Part shown: positions 821-59,087 of the stretch, one piece after another | How the letters are laid out: each line of letters opens with the position of its first letter | How positions within the stretch are numbered: the stretch's first letter is position 1 | NCBI GenBank assembly: GCA_964016885.1 | Contig: OZ024742.1 | Span: 239,010,001 to 239,074,000 of the forward strand | DNA: 64,000 bases | Origin: Eledone cirrhosa | Taxonomy: Eukaryota | Reading direction: 5' to 3' | Translations under genes and position numbers: made by a program | Notes under the pieces: generated by a model | Seen by the model: only the letters and a program-made list of their open reading frames with translations | Told to the model about the DNA's origin: nothing | The model's database searches: none

Positions 821-1299
821 TATGTATACGTACATACATATATGTATACAGACGTACAGTAGTATGTATATATATATACATACATGCACACATATATATA
901 TGTACGTATGGGTTTACCGAACATTTATTATAATGCTCGGTTTGTTTGTAAACAGACAGCCCGAATTAGTAGCCGTACAGTGTTCGGCAACCACCGTTGC
1001 CATTTTGTTCAACACTGACAAAGGAACGATGAACTAGTTTCTAGCTTATTAGCTGTCATCAGCACCGTATACCTTCCTAATAAGCTAGAAACTAGTTCAT
1101 CGTTCCTTTGTCAGTGTTGAAAAAAATGGCAACGGTGGTTGCCGAACACTGTATGGCTACTAATTCGGGCTGTTTGTTTACAAACAAACCGAGCATTATA
1201 ATAAATGTTCGGTAAACCAATACGTACATATATATATGTGTGCATGTATGTATATATATACATACTACTGTACGTCTGTATACATATATGTATGTACGT

Positions 1300-1306
<7 letters not shown>
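821..1306. repeat. Fold-back palindrome, about 230-bp arms, 24-nt spacer
   Basis: 821-1052 is the near-perfect reverse complement of 1077-1306; right end abuts (TA)n. Confidence 0.95.
1026..1068 (-). ncRNA. Minimal type I hammerhead ribozyme
   Basis: Minus strand ACGGTG-CTGATGA-C-AGCT-aata-AGCT-A-GAAA-CTAG-TT-CATCGT: 6-bp stem I (one G-U), intact core, palindromic ACUAGU stem III, GUU cleavage triplet. Confidence 0.8.
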
Positions 1307-1350
<44 letters not shown>

Positions 1351-2165
1351 GACAGGGGGGAAGAAAAAATGGCTTCACTTGTGCTTTTATAAATTAAGTT
1401 GTTGGTTGTTGGTTAGGTCTTAGGAGTTCTTGGTTAACGTAGGAGGTATTGTTTCGTTTTTAGAAAGACCTTTCACGCTGAGATGCGCTTGTCAAACTGA
1501 TGTGTATGTGGTGTGTTGTTCTATATATAGGGATTTAACATGTCTGTGGTGTGGTGGGGGTTTCTTTTCTCCCCCTTTAATAAGTGCATGGGTGTAGGTG
1601 TGTTGAAAAAGTGTTCATAGCAGTAATGAGTTGAGACGGTGAGTAGGGCTGGGTGGGGAGAAATGTAGCAAGTGCGGCCTGCCCCGGTCATTCTCGAAAA
1701 ATTCCTTTATTCAGGGGAAAAAGCTTTTAGTATTGCTTTTGTGTTGAGAATGGTCACGGGCAAATCGCACCTGCCAAGCTTGTGAATAATTCTTTTTTTC
1801 TTTTTTTCCTGAAGAATTTTTCTACGTCCATCCCAAAGTTAGTCCTTTGTTCAATACACACACATGTGCGCATATATGTACATACACACACGGGCATATG
1901 TAGGAATATATAGGCACACACCATCAATCACACACCCATGCACAAATACATCCACATACATACACAAAAACATATAGAGACATATATAAAAACACACATA
2001 TACATACGTACACACACGAATATGTACTCATACCTCCACATGGGTATATATACATACATACATACACACACATATACACATATACATACATACATATGTA
2101 TATATACATATATACATACATATACACATACACACACATACACACACACACATATATATATATAT

Positions 2166-2208
<43 letters not shown>

Positions 2209-2290
2209 TACATACATATACATACATACATATACATACATATACACACATAAAGATACATAACTAAATATACATATATACACATAAACG

Positions 2291-2368
<78 letters not shown>

Positions 2369-2467
2369 TATTTCCGTATATATACCCCTCCGTTCACACA
2401 TACATGCATGCACACACACACATACACACATACATCTATATAAATATACACATATAAAGAGAGAGGC

Positions 2468-2532
<65 letters not shown>

Positions 2533-2740
2533 TACAAACATACACACATCCATACATATATATACACACACACACACACACATACACACACCCACATACA
2601 TATATACCCACACGTACATACATCCATACATCCCTACACACATATATGTGTGTGTCTCACCGTTTACTCAGATATTCATGTGTATACATAAGAAGAGGGG
2701 GGGGGCGTAGTGAAATGGAATTTTACCTCCGAGTGTTAAT

Positions 2741-2972
2741 TCATTTTTTCGTGTTCAGTAGTGGTTTAAATTTTTCAATGAAGAATTCTTCTTTATATCT
2801 GCGGAAATGTTCGTTATCCGACCATATCTTGAAGAAAGGGAAGATTGTGAATTTTCCCTTCCCGCATGATGCAAAGTGTGCGCTACATGTGGTATTTCTG
2901 ACTGTGGGGTCTTTAATCTGTTGTTTATGTACCCGGACTCTATCATGTAATCCCGTTCCGGTTTCCCCTGGA
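2741..2972 (-). mobile_element. PLE GIY-YIG endonuclease C-terminal half (inverted fragment)
   Basis: GETGTGLHDRVRVHKQQI...HFASC...RRYKEEFFIEKFKPLLN. Confidence 0.85.
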
Positions 2973-2989
2973 ACAGAAGCCAAACAGAC

Positions 2990-3292
2990 CTACAAAAATT
3001 TTATTCGATCCTAAACAGGCTTCATGAAGCTATACAATTCACTATGGAATGTAACGAAAAGGAACTGCCCTTTCTAGATATCCTCATCATCAAAGGAGGG
3101 GAAAATATCATAACGGACCTATTTTGCAAACCCACTGACACACACCAATACTTAAATTTCCTCATCGAAGAGGGCAAACAGTTGTCCTTCAAAAACCATG
3201 ATAATTTCAAGGTCAATGCTAACATGAACTGCAAAACGAAAAACCTAATATATTGCGCAACATGTCCACAGTGTAAAGAGTATTACATTGGG
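2990..3292 (+). mobile_element. PLE RT thumb fused by deletion to GIY-YIG N-terminal half
   Basis: MECNEKELPFLDILIIK...TDLFCKPTDTHQYLNF (PLE RT LPFLD and KPT motifs), then NCKTKNLIYCATCPQCKEYYIG. Confidence 0.88.
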
Positions 3293-3312
3293 TATATATG
3301 TATGTGGGTGTG

Positions 3313-3352
<40 letters not shown>

Positions 3353-3372
3353 TGGATGTGTGTATGTTTGTA

Positions 3373-3424
<52 letters not shown>

Positions 3425-3691
3425 GAAAGTTATATTTAAACTGTTGGGTTAACAACGAGTAAATATTTATATTTCTCTCTGTTTCTTTACATGAAGTTCT
3501 TCTCTTTATCTATCTTTCTATATCTCTCTATTTAGTCACATGCATTTCTTCTTTTTCTTCGTTTCTCTTTCTTTCTTTCTTTCTCTTTTTCTTTTTACAA
3601 CTGTCCACAATATTTTTTACTGCCAAATCAACCTCCCAAATGCAAGGTGATTGAAAGGTATGTCGTATCTATTTATTTATAAGACTGTTTA

Positions 3692-3750
3692 TATTGTCTG
3701 AAGAAGGCATAACATATTGTTAATATGATATCCCTGAAATATATATAACG
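3692..3750 (+). ncRNA. Hammerhead-like motif, older copy of the 4797 family
   Basis: CTGAAGA-AGGCATAACATATT-gtt-AATATGATATCCCT-GAAA-TATA-TA; stem I imperfect. Confidence 0.5.
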
Positions 3751-3795
3751 AAATAAATATGGTTTTATAAATATAGTTTCCATTTATTTAATATC

Positions 3796-3891
<96 letters not shown>

Positions 3892-3948
3892 GTGTATATA
3901 TGTGTATATGTACATGTATGTATGTGTATGTTTGTATATATATGTGTG

Positions 3949-3984
<36 letters not shown>

Positions 3985-4243: not shown

Positions 4244-4335
<92 letters not shown>

Positions 4336-4396
4336 ATGTACATGTATGTGTATGTATGTATGTGTGTATGTATGTACTTGTATGTGTATGTGTATG

Positions 4397-4433
<37 letters not shown>

Positions 4434-4488: not shown

Positions 4489-4556
<68 letters not shown>

Positions 4557-4640
4557 AAGTTATATTTAAAATTGTTGGGTTACAACTAGTAAATATTTAT
4601 AACTGATATAAAAGCACTCGACAAATATTTGGAGTATATT

Positions 4641-4896
4641 TACAATATTAAATAAATGGAAAACTATATTTATAAAACCATATCTATTTCATTATATATA
4701 TTTCGGGGATATCATATTAACAATATGCTATGCCTTCATCAGACAAAATACAATATAAACAGTTTTATCTATAAAACTGTTTATATTGTATTTTGTCTGA
4801 TGAAGGCATAGCATATTGTTAATATGATATCCCCGAAATATATATAATGAAATAGATATGGTTTTATAAATATAGTTTTCCATTTATTTAATATTG

Positions 4897-4898
<2 letters not shown>
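4641..4898. repeat. Palindrome with 128-bp arms and 2-nt spacer, one hammerhead-like motif per arm
   Basis: 4641-4768 versus 4771-4898, no mismatch seen; CTGATGA-stem II-GAAA-TATATA at 4797-4845 (+) mirrored at 4694-4742 (-). Confidence 0.93.
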
Positions 4899-4939
<41 letters not shown>

Positions 4940-5055: not shown

Positions 5056-5120
<65 letters not shown>

Positions 5121-5202
5121 CGTGTATGTGTATATATGTATATTTAGTTATGTATCTTTATGTGTGTATATGTATGTATATGTATGTATGTATATGTATG
5201 TA

Positions 5203-5281
<79 letters not shown>

Positions 5282-6214
5282 ATGTGTGTGTATGTGTATA
5301 TGTATGTATATATGTATATATATATATGTATGTATGTATATGTGTATATGTGTGTGTATGTATGTATGTATATATACCCATGTGGAGGTATGAGTACATA
5401 TTCGTGTGTGTACGTATGTATATGTGTGTTTTTATATGTGTCTCTATATGTTTTTGTGTATGTATGTGGATGTATTTGTGCATGGGTGTGTGATTGATGG
5501 TGTGTGCCTATATATTCCTACATATGCCCGTGTGTGTATGTACATATATGCGCACATATATGTGTGTTGAACAAAGGACTAACTTTGGGATGGACGTAGA
5601 AAAATTCTTCAGGAAAAAAAGAAAAAAAGAATTATTCACAAGCTTGGCAGGTGCGATTTGCCCGTGACCATTCTCAACACAAAAGCAATACTAAAAGCTT
5701 TTTCCCCTGAATAAAGGAATTTTTCGAGAATGACCGGGGCAGGCCGCACTTGCTACATTTCTCCCCACCCAGCCCTACTCACCGTCTCAACTCATTACTG
5801 CTATGAACACTTTTTCAACACACCTACACCCATGCACTTATTAAAGGGGGAGAAAAGAAACCCCCACCACACCACAGACATGTTAAATCCCTATATATAG
5901 AACAACACACCACATACACATCAGTTTGACAAGCGCACCTCAGCGTGAAAGGTCTTTCTAAAAACGAAACAATACCTCCTACGTTAACCAAGAACTCCTA
6001 AGACCTAACCAACAACCAACAACTTAATTTATAAAATAATTTTTTTTAAGAAAAATTCTTTTTGGATTTTGTGAAGAAAATAAATTTGTTGAAAGCACAA
6101 GTGAAACCATTTTTTCTTCCCCCCTGTCTTAATATACCTAACTGTACCAAGGATTACACACATTTTCCAATATATATATATATATATATACATATATGTA
6201 TGTACGTATACATA

Positions 6215-8802: not shown

Positions 8803-8809
<7 letters not shown>

Positions 8810-9199
8810 ATACTTTGTGAGGGTCATGTTGCCAATAAGAAACGCACGCACCAGTTGCTTTCACTCCAATTTATTATAAATTAAATTTATAAATTTATAA
8901 ATTTCCGGTTGGTTGGTTGGTTGGTTCCACAACCGGGCGGTTGTTCATATATTGTCAAAGTTCTTTCGTCACTCATTCTGTGACCTCTTCAGTGACTGGG
9001 GATTCTTTTCTTTGTTTTGTGCCTCTCCTTTATTTTGTCCAGAATGTGTGACGAAAGAACTTTGACAATATATGGTTGTGGAACCAACCAACCAACCGGA
9101 AATTTATAAATTTATAAATTTAATTTATAATAAATTGGAGTGAAACAACTGGTGCGTGTGTTACTTGTTGGCAACATAACCCTCCCAAAGTATAACAAT
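8803..9199. repeat. Fold-back palindrome between (TA)n tracts (PLE pLTR-derived)
   Basis: 8803-8980 versus 9040-9199 reverse-complementary with some divergence and a short indel. Confidence 0.9.
8954..8996 (-). ncRNA. Minimal type I hammerhead ribozyme
   Basis: Minus strand GTCA-CTGAAGA-G-GTCAC-agaatga-GTGAC-GAAA-GAACTT-TGAC: stems I and II perfect; same GAAAGAACUUUG as the 443 motif with a different stem II sequence. Confidence 0.8.
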
Positions 9200-9255
9200 A
9201 TCGGTTTCAACACACGTTTTCAGATAAAGAATCTTGCTAAACAAATTCAGAAACG

Positions 9256-9352
<97 letters not shown>

Positions 9353-12676: not shown

Positions 12677-13135
12677 CATTGTCATTTTAATGTCCGCTTT
12701 CCCTGCTAGCAAGGTTGGACAGGTCTATATAGACAAGTCTGTATTGAAACTGAACCACTTATCTCCCAAGCAAGCCAGGGATCTGTGTCTCACTTATGTA
12801 TGCTCTTACATTCCATCAACTGCTCAGAGTAGGTTGTCACGCCTTTGACACAACTGAGGGTCCTTCCAACCCTCTGTTTGACAAGATTTCCATGGTTGGA
12901 TGCCCTTCTTATCACCAACCACTTTGCAGCATGTACTAGGTGCTTTTATCGAGTAAATCACCAACACTTGGGAGGTTGTCATGTCCTTGACATGACAGGA
13001 GGGTCCTTCCGTTCGTTTGTCTGGCAAGTTTTCTACAAAGTGGTTTGTGATAGCAAACATGCCAGACAAAGGGTTGAGAGGACCCTTCCATCGAGTCAAG
13101 GGCATGACAACCTCCCTAGTGTTGGTGATTTACAC

Positions 13136-13166
<31 letters not shown>

Positions 13167-17978: not shown

Positions 17979-18842
17979 CTAAAAATAAAAAAAATTAAAA
18001 ATTGAAAATATAGCCAGTACAATGCAGATGACTATAATAATTGTTGACAACTATAGATAATAGTTGAATAAATTGGATAAAGATGGAAAAAAATGAACAA
18101 AGACATAAGCAGGGAATTGAACCATGCATCTTTTGTATGCTGGGCAAGCATATTAAACCATCACTCCAAAGCGTCCCTGGCTTCTAATTGCTGGGTTTTT
18201 TTTTAGGAGTTTTAAGTGTGGCACTAGAATTGTAAGCAAAACTTGATTGACTGATGAAGCATTGGGAAGTTTGAATTTTAAAAATATAGTGTCATAATGC
18301 AAATCATCATCATCATCATCACCGTTTTACGTCCGTTCTTCCACGCTAGCATGGAACTATAATAATAACTATAATAATAATTGATGATTATATATATTAG
18401 TTTCATCAACCAGGTTAAACGTGCTCACTCGGCATATGAGAGATGCATCGTCTGATTTCCTGCAGACATCGCTGTCCACTGTACCTTACCCAATTTATTC
18501 AACTATTATCTATAGTTATTAACTATTGTTATAGTGATCTGCAAAGTGGCAACTATATTTTCAAATTTTAAATTTTCCAATGCTTCATTAGTTAACCAAG
18601 TTATGTTTAAAAAATAAAATATACAATAGAAATTGAAGAGATTCATGATAACACGTATTAATTCAAGAAACAAAAACATCAAGCAGCACATAAGAAAGTA
18701 TCTTTAAAAATGAATTTCCTCTTAACCATTTCATTACTATATTTCTACGGAAATACACTGCTTATGTTTTCAAATAACTTTCGATATTAATCAAGAATTT
18801 GGAGAGATTTAATATAATAACTAACTTTGTTGATATCAAATT

Positions 18843-19904: not shown

Positions 19905-20098
19905 ACATAATGGTATAAAATTGATGACTTGACAATAGAGGAGAGGTGAGTGAATTATGATTGAGTTGTTAAATAACAAGGCCTTTTTGGCTTCTTTGGT
20001 TGATGATTGGACTGATGATTCTGTTGTTATTTAACAACTCAATCATAATTCACTCACCTCTCCTCTATTGTCAAGTCATCAATTTTATACCATTATGT
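19905..20098. repeat. 75-bp inverted repeat with 44-nt spacer in COX18 intron 5
   Basis: 19905-19979 is the exact reverse complement of 20024-20098. Confidence 0.95.
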
Positions 20099-36100: not shown

Positions 36101-36722
36101 AATGTACGCAAACGGCAAAGCATAAACGAATTGAGAGAAAGGGACTGAGCATAAGAGGAATCAAATGCTGTGTAGGAGAGGACGTTGCGTTGGTATGGAC
36201 ATGTGATGCGTATGAAGGATGACAGCTGCATAAAAAGGTGCAGAGCACTAAAAGTCGATGGAAGCCTTGGAGTGGGGAGACCCAAGACCTGGGATGAGGT
36301 GATAAAAGCTGACCTTGCCCAATTGCACCTCTCAAAGGCGATGACACAAGACTGTGACCTCTGGCGTCATGCAGTAATACAGAAGACCCGACTTTCCACA
36401 GGTATAAGCCGAAGCTGAAGTATATAGACAATATGACCCCACCCCCTCCCACTGCAAAGTGGTCATGGAGATGTCATGATAAAAAAGCACCCAGTCCACA
36501 CTGTAAAGTGGTCACGTAGGTGCCACAGTAAAAAAGTACCCAGTACTCACTGTAAATGAGATTGGTGTTAGGAAGGGCAGCCAGCTGTAGAAATCAAGTC
36601 AAAATCAGTTCCCGTATGAGCAAGACAAGGTCACCTGACCTGGCATTACCCACAAGAGGACAACCCATCTAACCCATGCTAGCATGGAAGAATGGACGTA
36701 AAAAGGTGATGATGATGATGAT
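33150..36722 (+). mobile_element. Near full-length degenerate RTE-clade LINE (APE endonuclease, RT, Cys-rich insert, (GAT)n tail)
   Basis: VQET, GVGILL, AGDFNGHV, SQIDFIL; FGFVPGKGTTD, FVDLEKAF, GVYQGSVLSPLLF, LLYADDL; many stops; interrupted at 33928-34203 by a short (CAT)n-headed repeat. Confidence 0.93.
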
Positions 36723-37152
36723 ATATATACATATATGTATGACATTAAACTGCATCCAGTGGCAAGGGTCCAGTTCGGGAGTTCAGGAGCTGTGAGGAAT
36801 GTGGAATTACCTCTTAGTTGTGTATGAATGTATGGATATATTATATGTGTATATGTATGTCTGTGTATATGCATATATATATGTATATGTCTGTGTGTGT
36901 GTGTATGTATGTACATGTGTGTGTCTGTGTGGGTGTGTACATATACACATGTATATGTATATTTTTCTATTACTAATCTGTATGAACAAATTCATTTATT
37001 CACATTTGCATTCACTTGCTGCCCGGTGTTGCCATTAATGATACAAGGAACTATTACTGAGTCATCCTAGCATGACATACTCCCGCCTATATGGTCACCC
37101 TCCCATTCAGCTTCCTGTTTACACTAAAGCCAGTCTTTGAACGTCTAACTCA

Positions 37153-37252
37153 CATACCAATACGTGCCTACACGCACAAGTAGATACACACGCATGCGAG
37201 TGTGTAAGAATTCGTGTGTATCTACTTGTGCGTGTAGGCACATATTGGTATG
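37153..37252. repeat. 40-bp inverted repeat, 20-nt loop
   Basis: 37153-37192 versus 37213-37252, one mismatch. Confidence 0.9.
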
Positions 37253-37539
37253 CACTAATATATACACACAGAGTTTGAGACATCATGCAGATAAGTGTTA
37301 AAACGATTATATATTGTAGGGTTTTGAAAATATAGTATGTAGATGCATATAGTTACCATTTCCTACCCCACCTCCACCACCTTCCGGTATGCCCGCCTGA
37401 CGCCATATACCATCCACTTCCTCATGCATATAGTGGAGTGGAGAAGCCCCCTAAGTCCAGTAAAACAAATTCACTAGTGCTGGTGGCATCAATAAAGCAC
37501 CCTGTCCATGCTGTAAAATGGAGGTGATAGAAGTGACAT

Positions 37540-39505
37540 TCAGCCATTAAATCTCTTGCTAATCTGATCATCTAGATATCGGAAGCTATCAACCACCTCT
37601 ATAGACCCTACCTGCGTTTGAAAAATGTGTCTATCACTGACACTTCTACTATCAATTTTCCCTGAACATCTACTACATATGAAGTTTTCCTTTCCTGTTA
37701 GTTTGCCTGCTATCCCACTACACCTCTTCTGTACCCAAGATCTGTATTGTGTACATTCTATAGAGTTTATGCCAACTCCTTTTCTACATATCGAGCATGG
37801 CCATTTCCCAGATGGAATCGGGGTCTTGTCCTCTTTCCTACTTATCAATACTTTAGTCTTTGCTAGGTTCACTTTCAGTCCCCTTGATTCCAACTAAGTA
37901 CCAGATCATCAACATAGAGAAGTTCCTAAGGGCAGCCAGTCTTAAACTCCTCTTTTATGGCTTGGAGAACTATAATGAATAAAACTGGGCTGAAGACCGA
38001 ACCCTGATGAATTCCTACTTGTATCTGGAATTCCTCACTAAATTCCATTCCTACTTTCACTTTTCTGACAGCTCCTCTGTACATAGCTTGCACTGACCTC
38101 ACAAGCCATTCTTCTGCACCTAGTTTCCTTAGGGACAACTAGATGACAGGTTGGGTTACTCTATTAGAGGTATTCTTTAGGTCAACAAAAGCTAAATATA
38201 GTGGCTTATTCTTCTCTAAGAACCTCTCTTGTAGTTGTCTCACTAAGAAGAGGGCATCTGTTGTACTTTTCCCAGGCACAAAACCAAACTGCATCTCATC
38301 TAATTTCTCTAGTTGTGCTAATATTCTCTCTGCCACTTTCATAACCTGATCCATCAGTTTTATGCCCCTATAATTGCTCCTCCCCAGAGCATCCCCTTTA
38401 CCTTTGTAACAATTAACAAGAATATTGCTGCACCAGTCTTTGGGTATGACCCTGCCATATATAAATTGATTGACTATGCATGCAACCAGTTTAGTTCCTA
38501 CTTCTCCTGATGCCTTCAACATCTCAGCAACTATCCCTTACAGTCCAGCAGCTTTACCACCTTTTATTTCCTTAATTGCTTCTTTGACCCTATAGTCGTC
38601 AACCTCAATAGCTGGTCCCTCTGTTGGGAGTAGTTTCTCTCTCTCCCATTCATTCTCAACATTTATCAGTCTCTCATAATGACATTTCCAGGCCTCTTTT
38701 TTCTGAGCATCAGTGACGCTAAGTGATTGGCATCATTTCAGACACCCTTATCTCCAACAACATCCTGATTTGATTTACAATGATACACTGCCTTGCAATG
38801 CAGAACACCTCACATTTCTGATCCTCTTGTCACAGAACATTGGCAAACCTCCTATTCTCAGTTTCCCTGTGTGCTATGTATACCTGTCGTCTGGATCTCT
38901 TTTAGCAGCTGAGTATCGATCTACTGTGCTGTTCCACCACCAAGTCACCCTCTGTCTGGTTGGAGTTTTACTCCAGTCACAAGTCTCTTCAGTTGCGTGC
39001 AGTAGGTTGTCGTGTAAGAACTTCCAATTATCTTGTATATCATACAATTCTAAGTCGTCTACTTTCTCGTCATACATATCTTGTAGAACTTTTCTAAACT
39101 TAGCTTCCAGACCTTCCTGTGTCTAATTCTGTCTCTTGCTTATTGAGATGTCACTAACGACTAACCGATGTTGGGGGGTACATTCTTCCCCAGGGTATGC
39201 CTTAGTATTCATAACCATTTATCTGTCTCGTTGCTGAACTAGCAAGAAGTCAATCAGGCTTATGTGCTCGCCTGATTGGTAGGTGATTGGCAGGTTTCCT
39301 AAAGTTAGGGTGATGCAAAGGGTTAGTCCACTTGCATCACAAAATTCAAGAAGCCTCACTCCTTCTTTGCTTCTTGAGCCATAACCATAACCACCATGTA
39401 CCCCTGTGTATCCATCCTGGAGCTGTCGAACATGACCATTGAAGTCACCTGCTAGTATGACTAGGTCTCTGTCCTCTGTCACTATGGTTGTCTCTAGAAG
39501 TTGTA
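37540..39505 (-). mobile_element. Degenerate RTE-clade LINE fragment
   Basis: AGDFNGHV, NYRGIKLMDQVMK, GIHQGSVFSPVLF and WPCSICRK motifs with deletions. Confidence 0.92.
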
Positions 39506-42476: not shown

Positions 42477-43900
42477 TACCTTTCCAGAAATCCAGGCCAC
42501 CCGGCACACAAGAGTCAGCAAGAAAATACCTTTTCTATTTAAGGCTTTTAACATCTCAGGCTGGATTTCATCTTCCCCAGCGGCCTTTCCACATTTGAGC
42601 TATTCAACTGCTCTTGAGACATCAGCCTCTGAGAGATTAGTCACCGGTCCCAGATGCACCTCATGTACACCAGGAGTTCTCTGAATTTGAATGTAATAAT
42701 AACTGCATACATGGTCCTGACTTCTTTATCCACCAACACTTCTCACTTTATCCTGTAGATTGCCCTGGATGTGCCAGTTTTGTGGGCTTCCTTGGTTTTA
42801 GTTAGTCTCAGGTTGCAGATAACTAGATGGCAATCAATTGACAGGTCAGCCCATCTCTAAACACAAACATCCAGCACAGGATCAAAGAGGTCAGAGACAA
42901 TAACAAAATCAATTATTGATCTGTGTCCCTGGTTCCCTTTATACTATGTAAATTTATGGATGTCTGTCCTGGCAGGTGTTCATAATAGAGTGTCCATTGC
43001 TAGAACAGAAGTCTAGAAAGGTCTCTCCATTTGTATTTAGATTGGGGGTCGCCATTCCTTCCAATCACTCCTTTCCATGTCAGGTTGTCAGTGCCAACAT
43101 GTACATTGAAGTCCCCCATCAGGATATATGACTCAGTCTTAACTACATCTAACACTGCAGTGACTGCATCAAGGAAGGATCTGTGTTTGGACTACTTTTT
43201 TGGTCTATAAACTTGTACCACCCACAGAAACCTATCTTTCAGCCAATGCATCAAGAGGCAAATCCTCCGTCCTTATGGGAATGTATCCATAACACATTCT
43301 AACAACCTGGGGCTTGTGAGTATCCCCACTCCTGCCTTTGCAGTCATTTTTGGCGCCACACCTGAATAGTGGTGTTTCCATCCTCCATCCAAATCTATAG
43401 TACCAGATCCACAGTATTTTGTTGAAGACACCCCGACTATATCTAGCCAGTAACATCTAACCTCTTCCACTAGTTCCTGCTCCTTACCTGTAAGGATTGT
43501 GATGTTCCAGGTTCCAATTGTCAGGTTTGCTCCCTTCCAAAGCCTCTTTGGGGTCTCGCGATATGCAATCTTTGTGCGTCCATCCTGCGCCTCCCAGGAC
43601 AGATCACAGGCTCATCGCCAGTGTTTGCGGTATGAAATGGGGACTGCAATATATTTTTCGAACAGGCCCCTCTACCTAAGACCTGAATGTGTCTCTTGTT
43701 AACCTGCGAGGCAGAACTGTTTTCCCGGCAGAGCTGCTCTGCTAGAGAACGGGTCGCAGGTGGGCAATAGTGATACCACCACCCGATATGATGGTTAGTT
43801 GCGATATAAGCGGGTAACTGCCGGTAAACTACTTGGGGAGTTGGAGCAATGGGTGACACCAGTAGCTCCCAAGAACACTCACAACCCAGTTACGTAGCTA
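42477..43900 (-). mobile_element. Second RTE family (Rex3/Expander-like) 5' fragment in COX18 intron 1
   Basis: GTWNIT..LDIVGVSSTK..AGVGILT, MGDFNVHVG, SIIDFVIV, GKAAGEDEI; homologous to 56645-58100. Confidence 0.85.
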
Positions 43901-45379: not shown

Positions 45380-45465
45380 TTAATCAACCAACTTTCTCTA
45401 ATTGAATAAATATGGTACACACAATTGCTATTTAATATCCGAGCAACGCCGGGTACTTCTGCTAG
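45380..45465 (+). mobile_element. Helitron 3' end (5' boundary not determined)
   Basis: CCGAGCAACGCCGGGTACTTCTG-CTAG|T. Confidence 0.75.
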
Positions 45466-45475: not shown

Positions 45476-45745
45476 TAATTGGTGCGGAATGCTTAAAGTG
45501 TCCTTAAGCGGTAGGCCGTTTGAGCACGCGATGCTCTTACAGAGCAGAGTATGATATCACATAAGAAACGGAGAAATCAGTGTTGCGACGAATAAAATTT
45601 ATTAGACATATTACAATCGTTTCTCTGGAGACCAGCTCGAGACACGATCGATGTGATGATCGAACCTAACTCGAGCTTGTCACCAGAGAAACGATTGTAA
45701 TTTTATTCGTCGCAAAACTGATTCTCCGTTTCTTATGTGATATAT
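45476..45745. mobile_element. Fold-back derivative of the hammerhead-bearing element at 58410-58660
   Basis: 45476-45672 is the reverse complement of about 58463-58660; 45670-45743 mirrors 45554-45640. Confidence 0.85.
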
Positions 45746-45762: not shown

Positions 45763-46829
45763 CTAGCAGAGGTACCCGGCGCTGCTCGGATATTAAATAC
45801 CAATTGTGTATACCATTTATGTCAATACTTCAGTGCTACTTCGAAAACTATACTTTTACAAAATCATTTGCTTTTTCCAAAAGGGGGTTCCTTCCCCCGG
45901 GGGTCCCCTACCCAATATGTGCCAATTCTGAGAGTTCACATTCATCTGTAGGACAAACGTAGCCCATGTGTCAAGTTTTGTGAAAATCGGTTGCGAACTC
46001 CAGAAGTTATGACGTTTTGTTGCATTGCACTGCAGTGCTTCAGTCGACTCCAAGGAAGTGGTTAAAGTGGTTAAAGGGGGTTATCTGTCGGGGGTGGGGG
46101 GCTATAATCAATATCTGGAAAAATGACAGTGCCCATGACCATCCGAAGTAAATAAGTAACCTATGTCTTAAGTTTGGTGAAAATACTGTAGAAATGCATA
46201 AGGTTTATACATACACGCGTGCGTTCGTGGAGAGGGGGGGGTATGTATTTGTGTGTGCGTATGTATGTGTATGTCCGTCAGGGCATACGTATGTACTGGC
46301 CTAAATCTTCACTATTTACTTTTACTATTTTAATAACCTCTGTCATTTTCGTTTTCAATTTTATTTACATCATTCTTAAACTCCGGGGCTGGAAATCATT
46401 CTGTTATTTTAAATAGAATATTAGTATAACGACTCCATTTATACCATAAACTTGGTCTTGTCTTTGCTTGAAAAGTTCTTCTCGATCCACATAACGACGT
46501 ATTATCCTCGCTTTTTTCCCGTTCATTGCCAGGGAACGTCTGCACGAACCAAAATATCGTCTTCCTGTTTTCGTTCGGTTGCAACGTTTCTCGAAATAAT
46601 TACTTCTGCGTTCACAGATTACTCTCAGTTCAATTTGAATGGGAAATTCCTGTTTCATCGATTTTCTCCGTAACCATGGAGGATTGTAGCTTGAAAGTCG
46701 ACCCAACGCCTCCTCGGGTCATTCTGCATAACTGTGTAAATTTTCGCTGCATCCCACCAAGCCATTTCGACGTTTATCCGACTACACCTACATATACAAC
46801 GTCCGACCACTTCCAATTTATATAGTAGA
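45763..46829 (-). mobile_element. Non-autonomous Helitron, both termini present
   Basis: Minus strand A|TCTACTATATAAA at 46829, 3' hairpin CCGAGCAGCGCCGGG then CTAG|T at 45763; AT target and no TSD. Confidence 0.8.
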
Positions 46830-48060: not shown

Positions 48061-49065
48061 GTGGGGGTAGGCATTTTACTGGCTGAGAGATGGATCAATA
48101 AGATAATAGAGGTAGTTAGAGTTAGTAATAGAATAATTAAGCTTAGATTAGTTGTAGGCAAGAGACTGTTGACAATCATCTCTGCCTATGCTCCCCAGGC
48201 AGGCTTAGGTAAAGAAGAGAAAGACTGCTTTTACGAGCAACTTTTAGAAACAGCCACAATGACAGAGGACAGAGACATTATTATGCTAGCAGGGGACTTC
48301 AATGGTCATGTTGGACAGCTCCAGGATGGATACACTGGGGTACATGGTGGGGACGGTTATGGCTCAAGAAATGAAGGTGTGAGGCTTCTTGAATTTTGTG
48401 ATGCAAGTGCACTAAACATTTTCAACATTAACTTCAAGAAACCTACCAACCGCCTAATAACCTTCAAATCAGGTGAGCACATAAGCCAGATTAACTTCTT
48501 GCTAGTTAGGCAGCGAGACAGACAGATGGTGTCAAATACTAAGGCATACCCCGGGGAAGCATGTACCCCACAACATAGGTTAGTTGTTAGTGACATCTCA
48601 GTAAGCAAGAAACAAAATGAGACATACAGGAAGGTATGGAAAAGAAAGGTCTGGATGCTAAAAGACCTTTCGCTAAAATATAAATTCAGGAAAGCCCTTC
48701 AAGATGTGTATGAAGAAAAAGAAGATGATTTAGAATCATAAGATATAGATGATAACTAGAATTTCTTACGTGACAACTTACTGCAGGCTACTGATGAAAC
48801 TTGTGGCTGGAGCAGAGCTCCGATCAGACAGAGAGTGACCAGGTGGTGGAACAGCACGGTAGGTAGAGCCATTAGAGACAAAAGACTACAAAATTGCTAC
48901 AAAGGTAAAGGGGATGCTCTGGAGAGGAGCAATTATAGGGGCATAAAGCTGATGGATCAGGTTATGAAAGTGACAGAGAGAATATTAGCACAACTAGAGA
49001 AATTAGATGAGATGCAGTTTGGTTTTGTGCCTGGAAAAAGTACAACAGATGTCCTCTTCTTAGTG
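48061..49065 (+). mobile_element. RTE LINE fragment (endonuclease plus short RT piece)
   Basis: GVGILL..ISAYAPQ..AGDFNGHVG, then a jump to NCYKGKGDALERSNYRGIKL. Confidence 0.92.
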
Positions 49066-49116
49066 AATTTCAACCACCACCCATTTCACAAATATATATT
49101 AGATATATATATATAT

Positions 49117-49978
49117 ATCATCATCATCGTTTAACATCTATCTTCCACGCTAGCATGGGTTTAGACAGGAATTATCCCACTTGAGGCATGATTGGTTGTC
49201 TTGCTCGCATAGGACTGTCTGGCAGGTTTTCTGGCTGGATGCCCTTCCTAACCCCAACCACGTTTACATTGTGGACTGGGAGGTCTTTACCGTGTTACCT
49301 ACACGGCCACATTACAGCGTGGACTGTGTGTTTTTTTGTCGTGACACCTACAGGACCTCATTTGTTTCGGACTGGATGTTGTGGTACCAACATAACTTTA
49401 CATTGAAAGGGGTGGTGTGGATGGGATGGGAGTAGTGGGACGGGGTGTATTTTTGTTAGAGGTCCTACTGACTGTAGATTTCGCTTTGTACTTAGGCAAG
49501 GCGGGTCTTCTGTATTACTGTGTAGCGCCAAAGATCTTGGCCCAGTGGCATTGTCTTGGAGAGGTGTAAGTGTGTGAGGTCGGAATTTATCAAGTCGTCC
49601 CAGGTTTTTCTGGGTCTGTCTACTCCGTGGCTACCATCTATTTTTATCGCCCTGCACTTTTTTATACAGCTGTCGTCTTTCATGCGCATCACCTGACCGT
49701 ACCAACGTAGTCTTCTCTTGAGTAAACAACATCTGATCCCTCTTATTCCTAATTTCTCTCTTAGTTCGTTTATGCTTTGCCATTCACGTATATTACTATT
49801 ACACATCCAGCGGAGCATGCAAGCTTCGTTCCTCTCCAGTCTGTGTATATCCTCTGCACACAATGCCCAGGTCTCACTGCCATGTAACATTGCTGTTCGT
49901 ATGCAGGCATCATACAGCCTGCCTTTCATTTTTAGAGAGAAATCTTTAGCGGCCAATAGTGGTATAAGCTCTCTGAAC
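49117..49978 (-). mobile_element. RTE LINE 3' end with (GAT)n tail
   Basis: KGRLYDACIRTAMLHGSETW..RLRWYG..RPRKTW, followed by the family 3' UTR. Confidence 0.9.
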
Positions 49979-51399
49979 TATATATATATAGTATTTGTAT
50001 GGTAATATTGGGATTTTCTAATAAAGATCCTGATAAAGATGAGAGAAGTTTTATGCTATCCAGTTTCCTTGATACAGCAGTAATTCAAAATCTGCTAAGG
50101 ATGTTCTCAGCTGTTGTAGATTCTGTTGTAGACTGTTAGGCTACGGGCTGCAGAGCTCAACATTTATAAATGGAGAGAGAATAACCAAGTTATACGTAAA
50201 ACATAATTTTCATTCTACATATGTTTCAGTGTATAACTGCGGGCCATACCATGATATATACAAGGTATCTGTCCATTGCTCTACATAACTGCAGGATTTA
50301 GACATTGTTATAAGTTTCAAGAGTAATGCATACAAGAGATAACTCCATACCATAGATGAGGTTCATATCATATCAATTAATACATTGTAAATTACAAGCA
50401 CACTAAAAGGCCACAGCTAAGCAGAAGCAGTATTAAAAGGGATATCAAAATGAAGTATTTCTGTGCATCCGTACATTAAGAGACATATCAAAATTACATG
50501 AGAATTTTAGTATGCATATTGACAAGAAAAAGGACAGTAGTTAGCCAATTATGTGCTGGCCATATGAAAATATATAAAAAAAGGAAAAGAAAATTCATAA
50601 CTTCATAAGAATTCTAGGTTAAAAGTAATTCTTCCTAAGAAGATTCCCAATAGTACTCAAAAAATCTCTAGCTAACTGTAAAACACTGGTATCAATCTTA
50701 TTTATATTATAATACAATACTATGAAATTCCAATAAATAAATAAATATAGAAAGATAGATAATTAAACAACTATTTTTTTACAGACTTACATAGATCTAT
50801 ATATTAGAATGTTCATTAAATGTTTGTATACAAATATACACCATCAATAACCAGTGCCAATAGGGCAGGTGAATAGGATGAATTAGTCATTAATAATTTA
50901 AGTGCAAGTTGGAGATCACCTTTTGTTGAGTTAAGTAACACCGTGTCGTCTGCAAATTCCAGCTGACTGATTTTACACACTTCCAGCTCGGCTACACATG
51001 TCAATCCTGTTCATGTAAATAATGGTTTCTACTATAGTCACAAGGCCAGCAATGTTTGGGGTGAGGAGAAATCGATTGAATCGACCCCAGTGCATTACTG
51101 GTGCTTTATTTCATCAACCCCATAAGGATGAAAGGCAAAGAGAGGTGACAGTACACATTCTTAGTGGAGTCCAACTCCCACATTGAATGGTTTCGATTTA
51201 GCACCATTTATCCAATTACAAATACTCATGCATTTGTATAGAGACATCAGGACAACAAGAAGCTGCCCACCGATCCCATACTCATGCAGAACCTTCCACA
51301 GCAGATTTTATGGGCAAAACCAACCAGCAAGAGACCCAGGAATTGACCCTGAGCAAGATGGTTACAAGAAGAAGGAGGAGGAGGAGGCTGGGCAAACCA

Positions 51400-51900
51400 T
51401 GTAGGCCCCCACAGACATCACCCCCACTTGGAATGCAATGGAGATGCGGAGCGCCTCCAGACTGAAAAGACCATTAATGTTGGCAACAAGGACATCAATC
51501 CAGTCCCCCTAGAACTTTGCGCTTGCAGAAAGTAAGCGGTACCTAGAAAATGGTTCAGAATGATTAAAGAGAGAGTTAAAAGTTTCGTTCGAACATAGAT
51601 TATCCCCATCCTCTCTGCTTCCGTCTATTCTCATCAGTAACGGGAACTAACGAACCTAGCTCTTTTCACTGTAGTAAAGTTTCATCCATTTACCTAGTGG
51701 AACTAGTCCATGTTGGAAAGGAAAGGATGTCACCCACTAAAGGGAAGCAATCGTGGCTGGAGGAATGAAAGTAAGGCAGAGACAAAGATGAGCATTTGCG
51801 CAGTCCGAAACCGCCAAACCATTTAGACAAAGCAGCTTGGTCGCAGGACAATGGAGAGAATCGGACATTGACCAGACCCCCGAGATCACTGAATATTAGG
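51400..51900 (-). mobile_element. CRE-like retrotransposon remnant
   Basis: DQAALSKWFGGFGLR and LRISIAFQVG resemble post-RT motifs of CRE-type elements. Confidence 0.5.
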
Positions 51901-55199: not shown

Positions 55200-55770
55200 A
55201 GATTAGAGTTACAAATATTGTTCAAGCATCTTACACATCTATATCCCCAATTTACTCAACTGAGCTCTTATTATGGCAATGAGATTATGTAACCTTAATA
55301 GATCCCAAATAGATATAATTTTAGCAGCTCATAAGACTATAATAGAATTTGAAGGGTACCTATGGACATGTAATAATATGCCAAATAACTTTGATATCAC
55401 AATGGGATCCAGTGCTTCAGCCCAATTCATAGATCATGTTGGACTACATTTATTGAGAGAAATTAGCATAAATATTCCATACTTAAAGGATGGTTTATAC
55501 CATGGTGATGCTCTTTTTGCTTTAGACTATAAGAAACACTACATAGAAAGAATTAGAAAGGACTTACATAAACTCTTTAAAAATTATAACCTAAACTTAC
55601 AAACCATACTATACCATAAACCTGCTCAATTGATAAGAAATCAAACCACCCTAAAGCAATACTTCAATCAATATTTAAAAGTATATCTAATACAATTAGC
55701 ACTTTATCTTGAAACTATCTTTAACCAAAATGCACCTTATTATAATGAAGCTTTATCTCGGTAGGGCCAC
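55200..55770 (+). mobile_element. Degenerate PLE reverse transcriptase
   Basis: FDITMGSSASAQFIDHVGLHLL and DGLYHGDAL (decayed GLYRDD), HKP, NAPYYNEAL. Confidence 0.7.
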
Positions 55771-55924
55771 TCTGATGAAATTAGATATCTAAATGGTAGT
55801 GTAGATGAGAGTTGACCAAATAATATATCATATAATATGGCAATAAATAAATCCGGATTGAAACACCATAATAATGATCTATATAACCATACAATTGATA
55901 AGATTACACAAACACAAAAGACCA

Positions 55925-56062
55925 TAATAATTGTTTCTATTTTAGGCACAAGGCCAGCAATTACCCAGTACATTACTGGTACTTTATTTTATCGACCCCG
56001 TAAGGATGAAAGGCAAAGTTAACCTCGGCGTGATTTGAACTCAGATCATAAAGGGACGTAAT
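55925..56062 (-). mobile_element. SINE family A, 5'-truncated
   Basis: Reverse complement of family body; more diverged pieces near 51030-51140, 60570-60630 and 61200-61260. Confidence 0.85.
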
Positions 56063-56152
56063 AATAATAATAGTAAAAAATATATTAGGAACAATAAAAT
56101 AAACCCACAAACTCTTTAACTCCCATATAAAACCTACAACCCAGAATAATCA

Positions 56153-56640
56153 TCATCATCATCATTTTACGTCCACTTTTCTTGCTTGCAAGGGTAGGAC
56201 GGGTCCTCCTCAACACAACATCTCTCCATTCGTCATGGTCCTTCGCCATCTCCTCTGTAAGCTTCAGCGATATGAGGTCAGCTCTCACCACCTCCGCCCA
56301 TATTTTTCGTGGTCTTCCTCTACTGTGTCTTTCTTCCACTGGGATTACTTGGCACTTCTTCACCCAGTGATCATCTTTCATGCACATCACATGGCTATAC
56401 CAACGCAGTCTTCTCTCCTGCACACTACAGTTTATCCTTTTTATACACAGTTTCACTCTCAACTCGTCCATGCTTGATTGTTCATGCACATTGACATGGC
56501 ACATCCATCGGAGCATGCTTCCCATATTCTCCACAGTTGATGTCCATGTCTCACTACCATGCAGCATCGCACATCTCACATAAACATCATACAACCGACC
56601 TTTCATTCGCAGGGAGAAACCCTTGGACTCGACAATCTCC
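56153..56640 (-). mobile_element. RTE LINE 3' end with (GAT)n tail
   Basis: KGFSLRMKGRLY..MLHGSETW..RRLRWY..RGRPRK. Confidence 0.9.
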
Positions 56641-56644
56641 CTGC

Positions 56645-58100
56645 ATCTCTTTGACACTTAGCATAGAGTTTACCAGGGAGGCTTAACAAGGTGATCCCTC
56701 TGTAATTAGAACAATCTCTGTTGTCTCCCTTTTTGAAAATTGGGACTATAACTCCCGATTGCCATGGCTTAGGTGCTTTTCCAGAGATCCAGGCCACCTG
56801 GCACACATGAGTCAGCCAGAGAATACCTTCTCTATTTAAGGCTTTTAATATCTCAGGCCGGATTTCATCTTCCCCAGTGGCTTTACCACATTTGAGCTCT
56901 TTAACTGCTCTTGTGAGTCAGCCTCTGAGAGATTAGTCACTGCTTCCAAATGCACCTCTTGTACATCTGATGATGCTGTTGTGATCCGGTTTAGGAGACC
57001 AGCAAAGTATGCTCTATACCTCACGTTCTTGATAGCAGGTGTGGAGGAGGGCTTCTTATTACAAAGAACACTTTATTTGCTGATCTGAAGTCAGATTCCA
57101 GCTTAACCCCAAAGTCCTCCCATGTCTTAACTTTGAACGCTTTTACTGTCTCTGCTATGATTTTTTTGTGCCTGCTTGTACTGCAAGTGCAAGAAGGAGA
57201 ACTTATTTTCAAGCCAAGCTTTGTAAGCCTCCTTCTTTGTATGGATGGCATCTTTGACCTCTTGATTGAAACAAGGAGGAGTCCTACCATCCAGCACCAC
57301 ACCAAGCCTTTTTCACAGATAACTAGATGGTGATCAGTTGACAGCTCAGCCCCTCTCTTAACTTGAACATCCAGCTCAGAATAAGAGAAATCAGAGACAA
57401 TAACAAAATCAATTATTGATCTCTATCCCTGATTCCACTTATACCATATGTATTTATGGATGTCTGTGCTGGAAGAAAGTGTTCATAATAAAGAGTTCAC
57501 TGCTAGAACAGAAGTCTAGCAAGACCTCTCCATTCATATTTAGATCGGGGTTGCTGTTCCTTCCAATCATTCCTTTCCATGTCATATACGTTGAAGTCTT
57601 CCATCAGGATACTCAGTCTTAACTACATCTAACACTGCAGTGACTTTATCAAGGAAGGACCTGTATTCGGACATCTTGTTTGGTGCATAAACTTGCATAA
57701 CCCACAGAGACCTATCTTTCAGCTTAAGCTTCAAGAGGCAAATCCTCCCTCCTTATGGGTTCCAGTTCATAACACATTCTGACAACCAGGGGCTTGTGAG
57801 TATCCCCACTCCCGCCTGTGCAGTCATTTCTGGCACCACACCTGAATATTGGAGTTTCCATCCTCCATCCAAAACTAAAGTATCAGAGCTACAGAACTTT
57901 GTTGAGGAAACCCCAAGTATATCTAGCTGGTAGCTTCTAGCCTCCTCCACTAGTTCCTGCTCCTTACCTTTAAGGGTTGTGATGTTCCAGGTTCCAGCTG
58001 TTAAGGTTTGCTCCCTTCCGAGCATGAAATGTGGCATGAAATATATTTTTCTAACAGGCCACTCTACCTAAGGCTTGAACGCATCCCTTGTTAATCTGCG
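56645..58100 (-). mobile_element. Rex3/Expander-like RTE fragment
   Basis: GTWNITTLKGKEQEL..AGVGILT; IVPIFKKGDNRDCSNYRGITLLSLPGKLYAK. Confidence 0.88.
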
Positions 58101-58434
58101 CAAAGGACGGTGTAGTATGGATTTTCTTTGTTTTCCTCATCATATTGCAGTTTCAAATTCGGTGGTCCTATTTACACCAGTCATCAATCTGGTACTTTGT
58201 CAAACCCGTGAGACTAGGCTTTTTTAGAGGTGGATTTTACTCGCCTCATCGTAGCTACGTCACTGGGTTGTGAAATTTTTCTTCGGAGCTGCAAGTATGA
58301 CCTATTGCTCCATCTCCCCTAGTAATTTACAGCTGTTGGTCCAGGGTTGCTTATTTGTCTGGCAGTTGCCCACTTATATTGTAACTAGCTATCATATCTG
58401 GTGGCCTTATTGCAAACTCTGCTTCGTAGAATCG

Positions 58435-58531
58435 AGACATATCCGAGGATCTTGCGATTTCAGAGTCAGGTTTGATCATTGCATCGATTGTGCCTCGAGC
58501 TGGTCGCCAGAGAAACGATTGTAATATGTCT
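58435..58531 (+). ncRNA. Type I hammerhead with long stem II, core U4C variant
   Basis: AGACATAT-CCGAGGA-TCTTGCGA..TCGCCAGA-GAAA-CGATTG-TA-ATATGTCT: perfect 8-bp stem I, GUA triplet, near-palindromic stem III; lies in an element of about 58410-58660 ending in (TA)n. Confidence 0.7.
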
Positions 58532-59087
58532 AATAAATCTTATTCGTCGCACCACTTTTTCTCCGTTTCTTATGTGATATTATACTCTGCTCTGTACGAG
58601 CAACAAGTGCTCAAACGGCATACCGCTTACGGACGCTTTAAGCATCCCACAGCAATTATATATATATATAGTAGCACTCACTGTAAATGAGGTTGGTGTT
58701 AGGAAGGGCATCCAGCTGTAGAAGTCAAGCCAGAATCAGTTCCCGTCCCACCCTTGCAAGCACGGAAAAGCGGATGTAAAATGAAATGATAGTAGGTGGC
58801 TTCCCAGTGTATATCAAGAGGTGACCACAGTTAAAAAAGGTACTCAATATATGTACACATTTATTTTATTATAGAAATGATTGTTTTATGTTGCCAATCC
58901 TTATGCCAATAGTAATGCACTTGTAGAATTATATAAATTTAAATTGAATTATTGTCTTCCTGTAATTCTTATATTACTTGTCTTTTTTCCTTCTTTTCTT
59001 TTCTATTTTTAGAAGAATTGTTCACTTAAGTCCCATCAAGCTGAATGTTAACTTTTACAATTTTTTGTACTTCCACAAACTAAGAAG

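What the first reader, a model, noticed from the sequence alone, without database searches (positions are those of the whole stretch)
821..58660. Fold-back elements that turn around in or beside a hammerhead ribozyme
Seen: four unrelated palindromes next to (TA)n tracts have their symmetry centre at a hammerhead. At 821-1306 the minus strand holds a full ribozyme (1026-1068) and the second arm restarts inside stem II, without CUGAUGA. At 8803-9199 the same occurs (full motif 8954-8996; mirrored arm starts in the stem II loop at 9040). At 45476-45745 stem II itself is the axis, and comparison with the unfolded copy at 58435-58531 shows the 5' half of the ribozyme replaced by the mirrored 3' half. 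At 4641-4898 the axis lies about 27 nt upstream of two head-to-head motifs. Established: PLEs carry minimal hammerheads in their pLTRs and often insert with an inverted truncated pLTR. Inference: the ribozyme hairpin defines where cDNA snaps back and self-primes, producing small non-coding hairpin elements (retrozyme-like) that favour TA microsatellites and could supply dsRNA.
Basis: partly seen in the sequence, partly recalled or inferred. Interest (0 to 1): 0.85.

Follow-up and report, generated by a model that had tools for sequence, protein, structure and literature searches.

The report
Penelope head-to-head stubs, not ribozyme snap-backs
The four palindromes are real, lopsided mirror-image stubs of very abundant Penelope-type jumping genes, a known shape; other copies of these families turn around at many places and not preferentially at the hammerhead, and each stub was likely built from two separate DNA copies of one RNA, started at two fixed points and joined head to head.

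Summary
The four palindromes and their hammerheads are real. They are head-to-head pairs of 5'-truncated ends (pLTRs) of four abundant Penelope-like families; one family has an RT plus GIY-YIG ORF, one is a 440-nt tandem retrozyme-like unit.

The ribozyme does not set the axis. Copies were sampled by a motif downstream of the hammerhead. Inner arm ends inside the ribozyme were 4 against 11.8 expected (family 3) and 30 against 26.9 (family 4). They pile up instead 35-65 nt upstream of it (17 against 1.4; 14 against 5.2), probably the RNA 5' end.

136 of 142 scorable pairs have one tailed and one tail-less arm. In 27 of 58 and 20 of 34 the tail-less arm reaches further in, which plain snap-back cannot make. 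Best reading (0.7): both target strands prime on one uncut RNA at two start sites, and the cDNAs are end-joined. Architecture and self-priming are in print (PMC3846280, PMC8557442); two start sites and both-strand extension are shown in vitro (PMC11167929). This scan reached a similar reading on other DNA.

The parts
766..1077 (-). Locus 1 (family 1, ~440-nt tandem retrozyme-like unit): tailed arm, inner end at -16 from CUGA; tail about 766-820
1026..1068 (-). Minimal type I hammerhead, palindromic stem III (ACUAGU), C:A at 10.1:11.1
1076..1310 (+). Locus 1: tail-less arm starting at +10 (stem II 5' strand), 1-2 nt overlap with the other arm; ends in (TA)n
3423..3804 (.).
4551..4775 (-). Locus 2 (family 2): tailed arm with hammerhead 4750-4685; tail about 4551-4640
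4764..4900 (+). Locus 2: tail-less arm with hammerhead 4789-4854; AT-rich junction near -30
8803..9040 (-). Locus 3 (family 3, PLE with RT and GIY-YIG ORF): tail-less arm, deeper (inner end -47), full hammerhead 8996-8954
9040..9260 (+). Locus 3: tailed arm starting at +12 (stem II loop); tail 9201-9260 codes residues near the N-terminus of the family ORF
45476..45672 (-). Locus 4 (family 4): tailed arm, inner end at +20 in stem II; tail 45476-45553
45670..45743 (+). Locus 4: tail-less arm starting at about +51 in stem II, 3-nt overlap (CTC), internal 13-nt deletion
58410..58657 (+). Unpaired tailed family 4 copy with hammerhead 58435-58531; its 5' end (-33) lies in the family's truncation hot spot
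2..745 (+). 3' end of a longer relative of family 3: end of the endonuclease-coding frame (2-190), degenerate hammerhead near 443-485, tailed end before (TA)n

Best explanation
The palindromes are short head-to-head insertions of the terminal repeat of Penelope-like retroelements, and each was likely built at its site from two separate cDNAs rather than by one cDNA folding back. Inferred steps: (1) the element's RT-endonuclease, probably a dimer, nicks both strands of a (TA)n target; (2) one 3' end primes at the outer start site (end of the tail), the other at the inner site (start of the tail), on the same uncut RNA; (3) both cDNAs run towards the RNA 5' end and stop at scattered places, or run off the 5' end, which likely lies 35-65 nt upstream of the hammerhead; (4) host end-joining links the two cDNA 3' ends with 0-7 nt of microhomology or short filler, and repair fills in the other strands. 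The axis often falls near the hammerhead because the ribozyme sits between the start sites and the RNA 5' end, not because its hairpin primes. Shown here: the anatomy and counts. Shown in vitro by others for one element: both-strand nicking and extension, two internal start sites, uncut RNA as template. Not shown: that both cDNAs are made in one event, and that the upstream hot spot is the transcription start.
For: One tailed plus one tail-less arm in 70 of 74 family 3 pairs (P 1e-16 against 50%; unpaired arms split 35 tailed, 37 not), 37 of 37 family 4 (two of them are one local duplicate), 19 of 21 scorable family 1 (22 found, two automatic calls corrected by eye) and 10 of 10 family 2. Which arm is deeper does not follow the tail: tailed 21, tail-less 27, level 10 of 58; tailed 12, tail-less 20 of 34. 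Partner arms are more alike than other copies (median 2.9% against 6.1% substitutions over 58 pairs). A candidate giant pair, L083/L084, is 99.8% identical over 3.9 kb and shares a 1-nt indel against L108. No ribozyme enrichment, but sharp peaks upstream. None of 10 pairs with an end at the family 3 upstream peak has a partner reaching further 5', while 32 of the other 51 pairs have such an arm (permutation P 0.0014), as expected if both cDNAs share one template. The tail runs into the ORF start. PMC11167929 (parts 1-2 of 4 read): the enzyme nicks and extends both strands, starts at two internal sites that bound the tail, is predicted to be a dimer, and uses uncleaved RNA.
Against: Four family 3 pairs and two family 1 pairs have like ends. 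Only 28 of 58 pairs have a partner closer than 90% of other copies, and three (L087, L319, L321) are less alike than typical copies. Microhomology is modest: 3 nt or more in 11 of 41 family 3 junctions (6% by chance) but only 3 of 25 in family 4 (5% by chance) under a strict count that later mutations bias towards 'filler'. The locus 3 junction recurs exactly at L344, so some junction near stem II may be favoured. Eight family 3 ends lie at -10..+6 against 4.5 expected (P 0.09). Hot-spot windows were chosen after seeing the data. All sampled copies come from the first part of one contig. No RNA data fix the 5' end.
Confidence: 0.7

Rival explanations
1. Self-priming first, tail trimming later: a hairpin intermediate forms by self-priming (on cDNA or on an antisense RNA, as proposed in PMC3846280) with both arms full length, and the endonuclease then removes the tail from either arm while resolving or inserting it.
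For: It also predicts near-identical arms, one tail per insertion, and no link between depth and tail if either strand can be nicked. PMC8557442 (passages) ascribes the tail to endonuclease-mediated resolution. Overlaps of 19-21 nt in the AT-rich palindrome of family 3 (L037, L293, L294) look like perfect fold-backs.
Against: Self-priming needs a paired 3' end, yet 5 of 41 and 3 of 25 junctions are blunt and others carry filler or extra pieces. Pairs with both arms ending at the upstream peak and a few filler bases between them (L311, L237) fit two run-off cDNAs better. PMC11167929 explains the two ends as two RT start sites.
Confidence: 0.15
2. One reading: the hammerhead hairpin sets the place where a single cDNA snaps back and self-primes.
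For: Three of four listed loci have an arm starting in stem II; locus 4 has a 3-nt overlap between opposite sides of stem II. The locus 3 junction (-47 with +12) occurs twice. There is a slight excess at the 5' edge of the family 3 ribozyme (8 against 4.5).
Against: Stem II: 1 of 122 ends (5.0 expected) and 18 of 68 (16.8 expected); the family 3 ribozyme is under-used (4 against 11.8, P 0.009); the midpoint of the two inner ends falls at -10..+42 in 5 of 61 pairs. At loci 1-3 the joined positions are not partners in any ribozyme helix. The tail-less arm is deeper in about half of the pairs.
Confidence: 0.05
3. Two independent insertions into the same AT-rich spot, or later inversion or gene conversion, made the mirror images.
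For: A few pairs have unlike arms (L087, L319, L321), and these elements crowd into TA tracts. Gene conversion could make arms alike after the fact.
Against: Arms abut within a few bases with no TA target between them; 148 of 220 family 3 arms are in head-to-head pairs; independent insertions would give like ends in about half of the pairs, not 4 of 74.
Confidence: 0.05
4. The palindromes are read or assembly chimeras.
For: The window's own four junctions were not bridged by any listed read or contig (one search covered locus 3 only).
Against: Arms differ by substitutions and indels, end at two fixed family sites with a one-sided tail, and fold-back joints of family 3 at other positions appear in contigs of runs X1-X3 and in raw reads of X21.
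Confidence: 0.02

Closest known systems
Insertions of endonuclease-bearing Penelope-like elements with an inverted 5'-truncated pLTR and one-sided tail (Pen2a_Av and others, PMC3846280, passages seen; PMC8557442 Fig. 2 legend and passages)
   Same: Head-to-head inverted pLTR, a tail on one end only, pLTR plus tail overlapping the ORF start, AT-rich or (TA)n targets, short overlap at the inverted junction.
   Different: Tails here are 55-90 nt rather than 30-40. Most copies are ORF-less stubs. The published explanation is self-priming; the counts here favour two separately primed cDNAs.
PAc, Poseidon element of Anolis carolinensis (PMC11167929, parts 1-2 of 4 read)
   Same: Two internal RT start sites that bound the tail, cleavage and extension on both target strands, AT-rich target, ribozyme cleavage not needed for insertion.
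   Different: In the parts read, that paper does not explain inverted insertions. In family 3 the ORF starts about 175 nt downstream of the ribozyme, not in stem II, and the protein has the Neptune/Nematis-type linker.
Minimal type I hammerheads of PLE pLTRs (PMC4209133, part 1 of 4 and passages)
   Same: Short palindromic stem III, extra base before stem II, and pairs of motifs on opposite strands 100-700 bp apart already noted in Schistosoma.
   Different: That work treats the opposite-strand pairs as truncated PLEs and does not map axes or tails.
Animal non-LTR retrozymes (10.64898/2026.07.22.740005, part 1 of 5 read)
   Same: Family 1 is a ~440-nt tandem unit with one type I hammerhead and no ORF seen, probably moved by a PLE.
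   Different: Retrozymes are defined as head-to-tail tandems; locus 1 is a head-to-head insertion of a partial unit, and it follows the same one-tail rule as the coding families.
L1 twin priming (recalled; only search listings seen)
   Same: Both target strands prime on one RNA and the cDNAs are joined by microhomology, giving an inversion.
   Different: In L1 the second primer anneals at a chance internal site and the two pieces do not overlap; here both start sites are fixed and close, so both cDNAs copy the same stretch and a palindrome results.

Membership tests
Endonuclease-bearing Penelope-like element (family 3) | RT followed by a C-terminal GIY-YIG endonuclease with the CCHH motif | tested here: met
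   863-aa frame in L084 with YVDD, DKS(G)-type motif and VVY..C....C..YIG..H..H read by eye; Pfam RVT_1 only weak, below cut-off; nearest atlas clusters carry RVT_1, HTH_animal and GIY-YIG at 0.95-0.96.
Endonuclease-bearing Penelope-like element (family 3) | pLTR with hammerhead that overlaps the ORF start, tail running into the ORF | tested here: met
   ATG at about +177 from CUGA; the frame continues through the tail in L043; hammerhead at 0..+38.
Neptune or Nematis clade (family 3) | CX2-5CxxC linker before the endonuclease | tested here: met
   C-IDKK-C-IT-C upstream of GIY-YIG (motif definition from PMC8557442).
Neptune or Nematis clade (family 3) | Placement in an RT tree with named clade members | not tested
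   No tree was built, so the two clades are not told apart.
Hydra clade (families 2 and 4) | CxCX5C linker, no CCHH in the endonuclease | tested here: inconclusive
   A broken frame inside the family 4 pair L249 has CNC-RVGEQ-C before VVY..YIG, but its link to the right arm rests on one locus; family 2 shows only fragments with a late CxxC.
Non-LTR retrozyme (family 1) | Head-to-tail tandem units, each with a type I hammerhead, no ORF | tested here: met
   L208 has two hammerheads 440 nt apart and the tail continues into the next unit; matches recur at about 430-440-nt steps; no PLE frame of 200 aa or more in L181-L210.
Non-LTR retrozyme (family 1) | Self-cleavage and circular RNA | not testable with these tools
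   No RNA run holding a useful share was offered for the one stretch searched (family 3); family 1 was not searched.
   Junction patterns with up to 2 mismatches: 1, 1 and 2 matches genome-wide for loci 1, 4 and 3, against 3,345, 1,200 and 23,759 exact matches of the family end motifs. Locus 2 was not searched.

The most novel reading that the evidence does not exclude
Penelope-like elements insert by obligate double priming. A dimer uses both nicked strands at once on one uncut RNA, one at each end of the tail, so that every head-to-head pair records a single two-ended event. The short stubs come from priming at the tail just downstream of the 5' pLTR and run off the transcription start 35-85 nt upstream of the hammerhead. 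The same machinery moves a tandem retrozyme by the same rule. The tail, the inverted pLTR and the apparent tie to the ribozyme would then be one phenomenon, with the ribozyme passive during insertion.
Probability: 0.5. Interest if true: 0.65.

Novelty: new member of a known kind. Interest (0 to 1): 0.4.

Why it matters
The shape is known and the ribozyme-guided snap-back is not supported, so as a new element class this is ordinary. Its value is as a test set for an open question: PMC8557442 names the origin of tandem and inverted PLE structures as unsolved, and the printed explanation is self-priming (PMC3846280). Four unrelated families, with thousands to tens of thousands of ends each, follow a one-tail rule (136 of 142 pairs), show no link between depth and tail, and have a sharp stop upstream of the ribozyme. 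Together with the in vitro system of PMC11167929 these give direct predictions for a two-primer mechanism and suggest that uncut RNA is the template in vivo. No paper stating the two-primer model for PLEs came up, but the library lacks most subscription papers and no supplements were read. Other windows of this scan reached a similar idea, unchecked.

Tried and rejected
Rfam at gathering score: no match in the window. The first hammerhead scan was too strict and missed loci 1, 3 and the 58435 copy; the relaxed scan found them. The DNA search with a whole arm (L001-L030) selects copies that hold the ribozyme, so these 30 loci were left out of all end counts and used only as references. The low-complexity pattern was a poor probe and was used only for the tandem period. 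Mapping with mixed references gave shifted coordinates and was redone on one scale. In family 3, 13 of 74 pairs with complex or widely spaced junctions were dropped from end counts; in family 4, 3 of 37. Microhomology could be scored for only 41 of 61 and 25 of 34 simple pairs. Ends at the ribozyme cleavage site: no peak (family 4, +76..+84: 3 against 3.4; family 3: none at +25..+38), so cleaved RNA as main template was rejected. Families 1 and 2 were not tested statistically for end positions (reference problems, small samples). Reads laid on locus 3 showed fold-back joints of other copies but no record bridging the 9040 junction; runs with small word shares were not used. Target-site duplications cannot be read in (TA)n. 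dsRNA or circular RNA: no usable RNA data.
Full report
Observation. Self-comparison of the window finds inverted repeats centred near 1064, 4769 and 45650; the arms at 8803-9040 and 9040-9260 align directly. Arm mismatches are 7 of 240, 3 of 141, 6 of 162 and 3 of 74. A relaxed type I scan finds hammerheads at 1068-1026 (-), 3694-3751 (+), 4750-4685 (-), 4789-4854 (+), 8996-8954 (-) and 58435-58531 (+), plus one weak core at 51637; 20 shuffles give 0-2 each. The motifs have the palindromic stem III, and some the extra base before stem II, described for PLE hammerheads (PMC4209133, part 1 and passages). Rfam finds none at gathering score. A fifth pair of family 2 at about 3423-3804 turns about 240 nt from its ribozyme.

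What the families are. Exact 22-30-nt end motifs occur 23,759 and 2,396 times (family 3, two variants), 47,859 (family 2), 1,200 (family 4) and 3,345 times (family 1) in the 3.0-Gb genome; reversed controls gave 0. Family 3 is a coding PLE. [quoted passage not shown] Pfam gives only a weak RVT_1; atlas neighbours carry RVT_1 and GIY-YIG. Its ORF starts in the pLTR and runs through the tail. Family 1 is a 440-nt tandem unit without ORF, retrozyme-like. Family 4 probably, and family 2 possibly, belong to the Hydra clade, on broken frames only.

Sampling. To avoid selecting for the ribozyme I took copies by a motif downstream of it and read the DNA around them. Family 3: all 100 listed matches of the common variant and the first 78 listed of the rare one. 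Family 4: 30 loci plus 39 regions. Family 1: 30 plus 20. Family 2: 30. All come from the start of contig C1. Positions below count from the first C of CUGA.

The tail rule. Each family has two fixed 3' ends. Head-to-head pairs carry one of each: 70 of 74 in family 3 (unpaired arms 35 tailed, 37 tail-less), 37 of 37 in family 4 (two are one local duplicate), 19 of 21 scorable among 22 in family 1 (L259 changed to like-ended and L195 to one-of-each by eye) and 10 of 10 in family 2. All five window pairs follow it. The deeper arm is tailed in 21, tail-less in 27 and level in 10 of 58 family 3 pairs, and tailed in 12, tail-less in 20 of 34 family 4 pairs. In a plain snap-back the deeper arm is the first cDNA and the other is its copy, so a tail-less deeper arm with a tailed partner, as at locus 3, cannot arise (inference from the anatomy).

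Against the mean rate of ends per nucleotide at risk, family 3 has 4 ends in the ribozyme (11.8 expected, P 0.009 for deficit), 1 in stem II (5.0), 8 at -10..+6 (4.5, P 0.09) and 14 at -76..-51 (5.2, P 0.001), of 122 ends from 61 simple pairs; ends range from -3608 to +170. Family 4 has 30 in the ribozyme (26.9), 18 in stem II (16.8), 3 at the cleavage site (3.4) and 17 at -41..-27 (1.4, P 1.5e-13), of 68 ends; 12 of 31 unpaired arms also stop there. By eye, families 2 and 1 cluster near -84 and -100. The hot-spot windows were drawn after seeing the data. The family 4 peak sits on ACATT and the family 1 cluster on TCACT, both called initiator-like in PMC3846280 (passage); the family 3 peak precedes AAGATGGCG, which I recall as a YY1 motif (no call). 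That these peaks are RNA 5' ends is inference. If so, the templates were not cut by the ribozyme, in line with PMC11167929.

One template. Partner arms differ by a median 2.9% against 6.1% to other copies over 58 pairs; 28 of 58 partners are closer than 90% of other copies, and three are less alike than typical copies. L083 and L084, 11.8 kb apart with the middle unread, are 99.8% identical over 3.9 kb, one tailed and one not, and share a 1-nt indel against L108. None of the 10 pairs with an end at the -60 peak has a partner going deeper, against 32 of 51 other pairs (permutation P 0.0014). This points to the same RNA, or the same class of RNA, for both arms; it cannot tell one molecule from two of the same donor, and gene conversion could add likeness.

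Junctions. Overlap of 3 nt or more occurs in 11 of 41 scored family 3 junctions (6% by chance) and 3 of 25 in family 4 (5%); 5 and 3 are blunt; 17 and 19 score as filler, a number inflated by later mutations. The window junctions of loci 1 and 4 are unique in the genome at up to 2 mismatches; that of locus 3 recurs once, at L344 with other flanks. Both arms of L344 carry an AT-rich variant that both arms of locus 3 lack, which suggests separate formation, though substitution counts do not decide it. This is the best remaining hint of a favoured annealing near stem II.

Artefact check. Contigs of runs X1-X3 (one sample) and raw reads of X21 show fold-back joints of family 3 at other positions, many near the 3' end and far from the ribozyme; none listed bridges 9040, and 93 joints were not shown. 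The window's own junctions are therefore supported by arm differences and family anatomy, not by reads.

Mechanism and rivals. The best fit is two cDNAs primed on the two nicked target strands at the two start sites of one uncut RNA and then end-joined (0.7). PMC11167929 (parts 1-2 of 4) shows both-strand cleavage and extension, two internal starts bounding the tail, a predicted dimer and no need for ribozyme cleavage; the parts read give no model for inverted copies. A hairpin intermediate trimmed on either strand (0.15) survives the depth-tail result but not easily the blunt and filler junctions. Ribozyme-set snap-back (0.05), independent insertions (0.05) and artefact (0.02) fit poorly.

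What is known. The inverted pLTR with one-sided tail and (TA)n bias are in PMC8557442 (passages) and PMC3846280 (passages), which proposes self-priming. Opposite-strand hammerhead pairs are noted in PMC4209133. Retrozymes as PLE derivatives: 10.64898/2026.07.22.740005 (part 1 of 5). PMC9977147 (passages) added nothing. No printed two-primer model for PLEs came up; supplements were not read and older subscription papers are not in the library. Earlier notes of this scan reach a similar reading in this and other genomes; I had noted the idea before looking, and those notes are not counted as evidence.

Verdict. Real, a new set of members of a known kind. The counts make the insertion mechanism testable. 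Interest 0.4.

Noticed in passing
window 1385-2361 and 5060-6036 (also 1348-1387 / 6092-6131): A 977-nt, 96% inverted duplication that encloses both family 2 pairs (3423-3804 and 4551-4900).
   Followed up: no
window 19905-20098: Hairpin with perfect arms of about 75 nt around a spacer of about 45 nt; the spacer holds CTGATGA but the scan found no hammerhead. MITE-like or small-RNA-like.
   Followed up: no
window 12947-13139, 37153-37252, 18230-18612: Further inverted repeats without a detected hammerhead; the first lies beside (TA)n and overlaps a dispersed repeat.
   Followed up: no
window 45401-45465 and 45763-45826: Locus 4 is flanked on both sides by inward-facing copies of another repeat end (GC hairpin then CTAGT; Helitron-like by recall), 89% alike.
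   Followed up: partly
L151/L152 junction (family 2): Between the two arms lies a 15-nt insert that matches the 3' strand of the family's ribozyme stem II, apparently a template jump.
   Followed up: no
tails of families 2 and 4 (window 4551-4640, 45476-45553): The unrelated tails share GAGTRCT: 15 of 15 and 28 of 38 tailed matches, overlapping loci counted twice; absent from the family 3 tail.
   Followed up: partly
L250 (family 4, between L122 and L123): A ~310-nt tandem array in inverted arrangement, nearly identical copies, lies between two family 4 ends 7.2 kb apart.
   Followed up: no
L083/L084: Near full-length family 3 copies head to head 11.8 kb apart, 99.8% identical, one tailed and one not; the 4 kb between them was not read.
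   Followed up: partly
window 42816-43538 / 57316-58019 and 33954-39503, 48238-49979, 62073-63006: Several dispersed repeats of 0.5-1 kb at 65-85% identity, probably LINE fragments.
   Followed up: no
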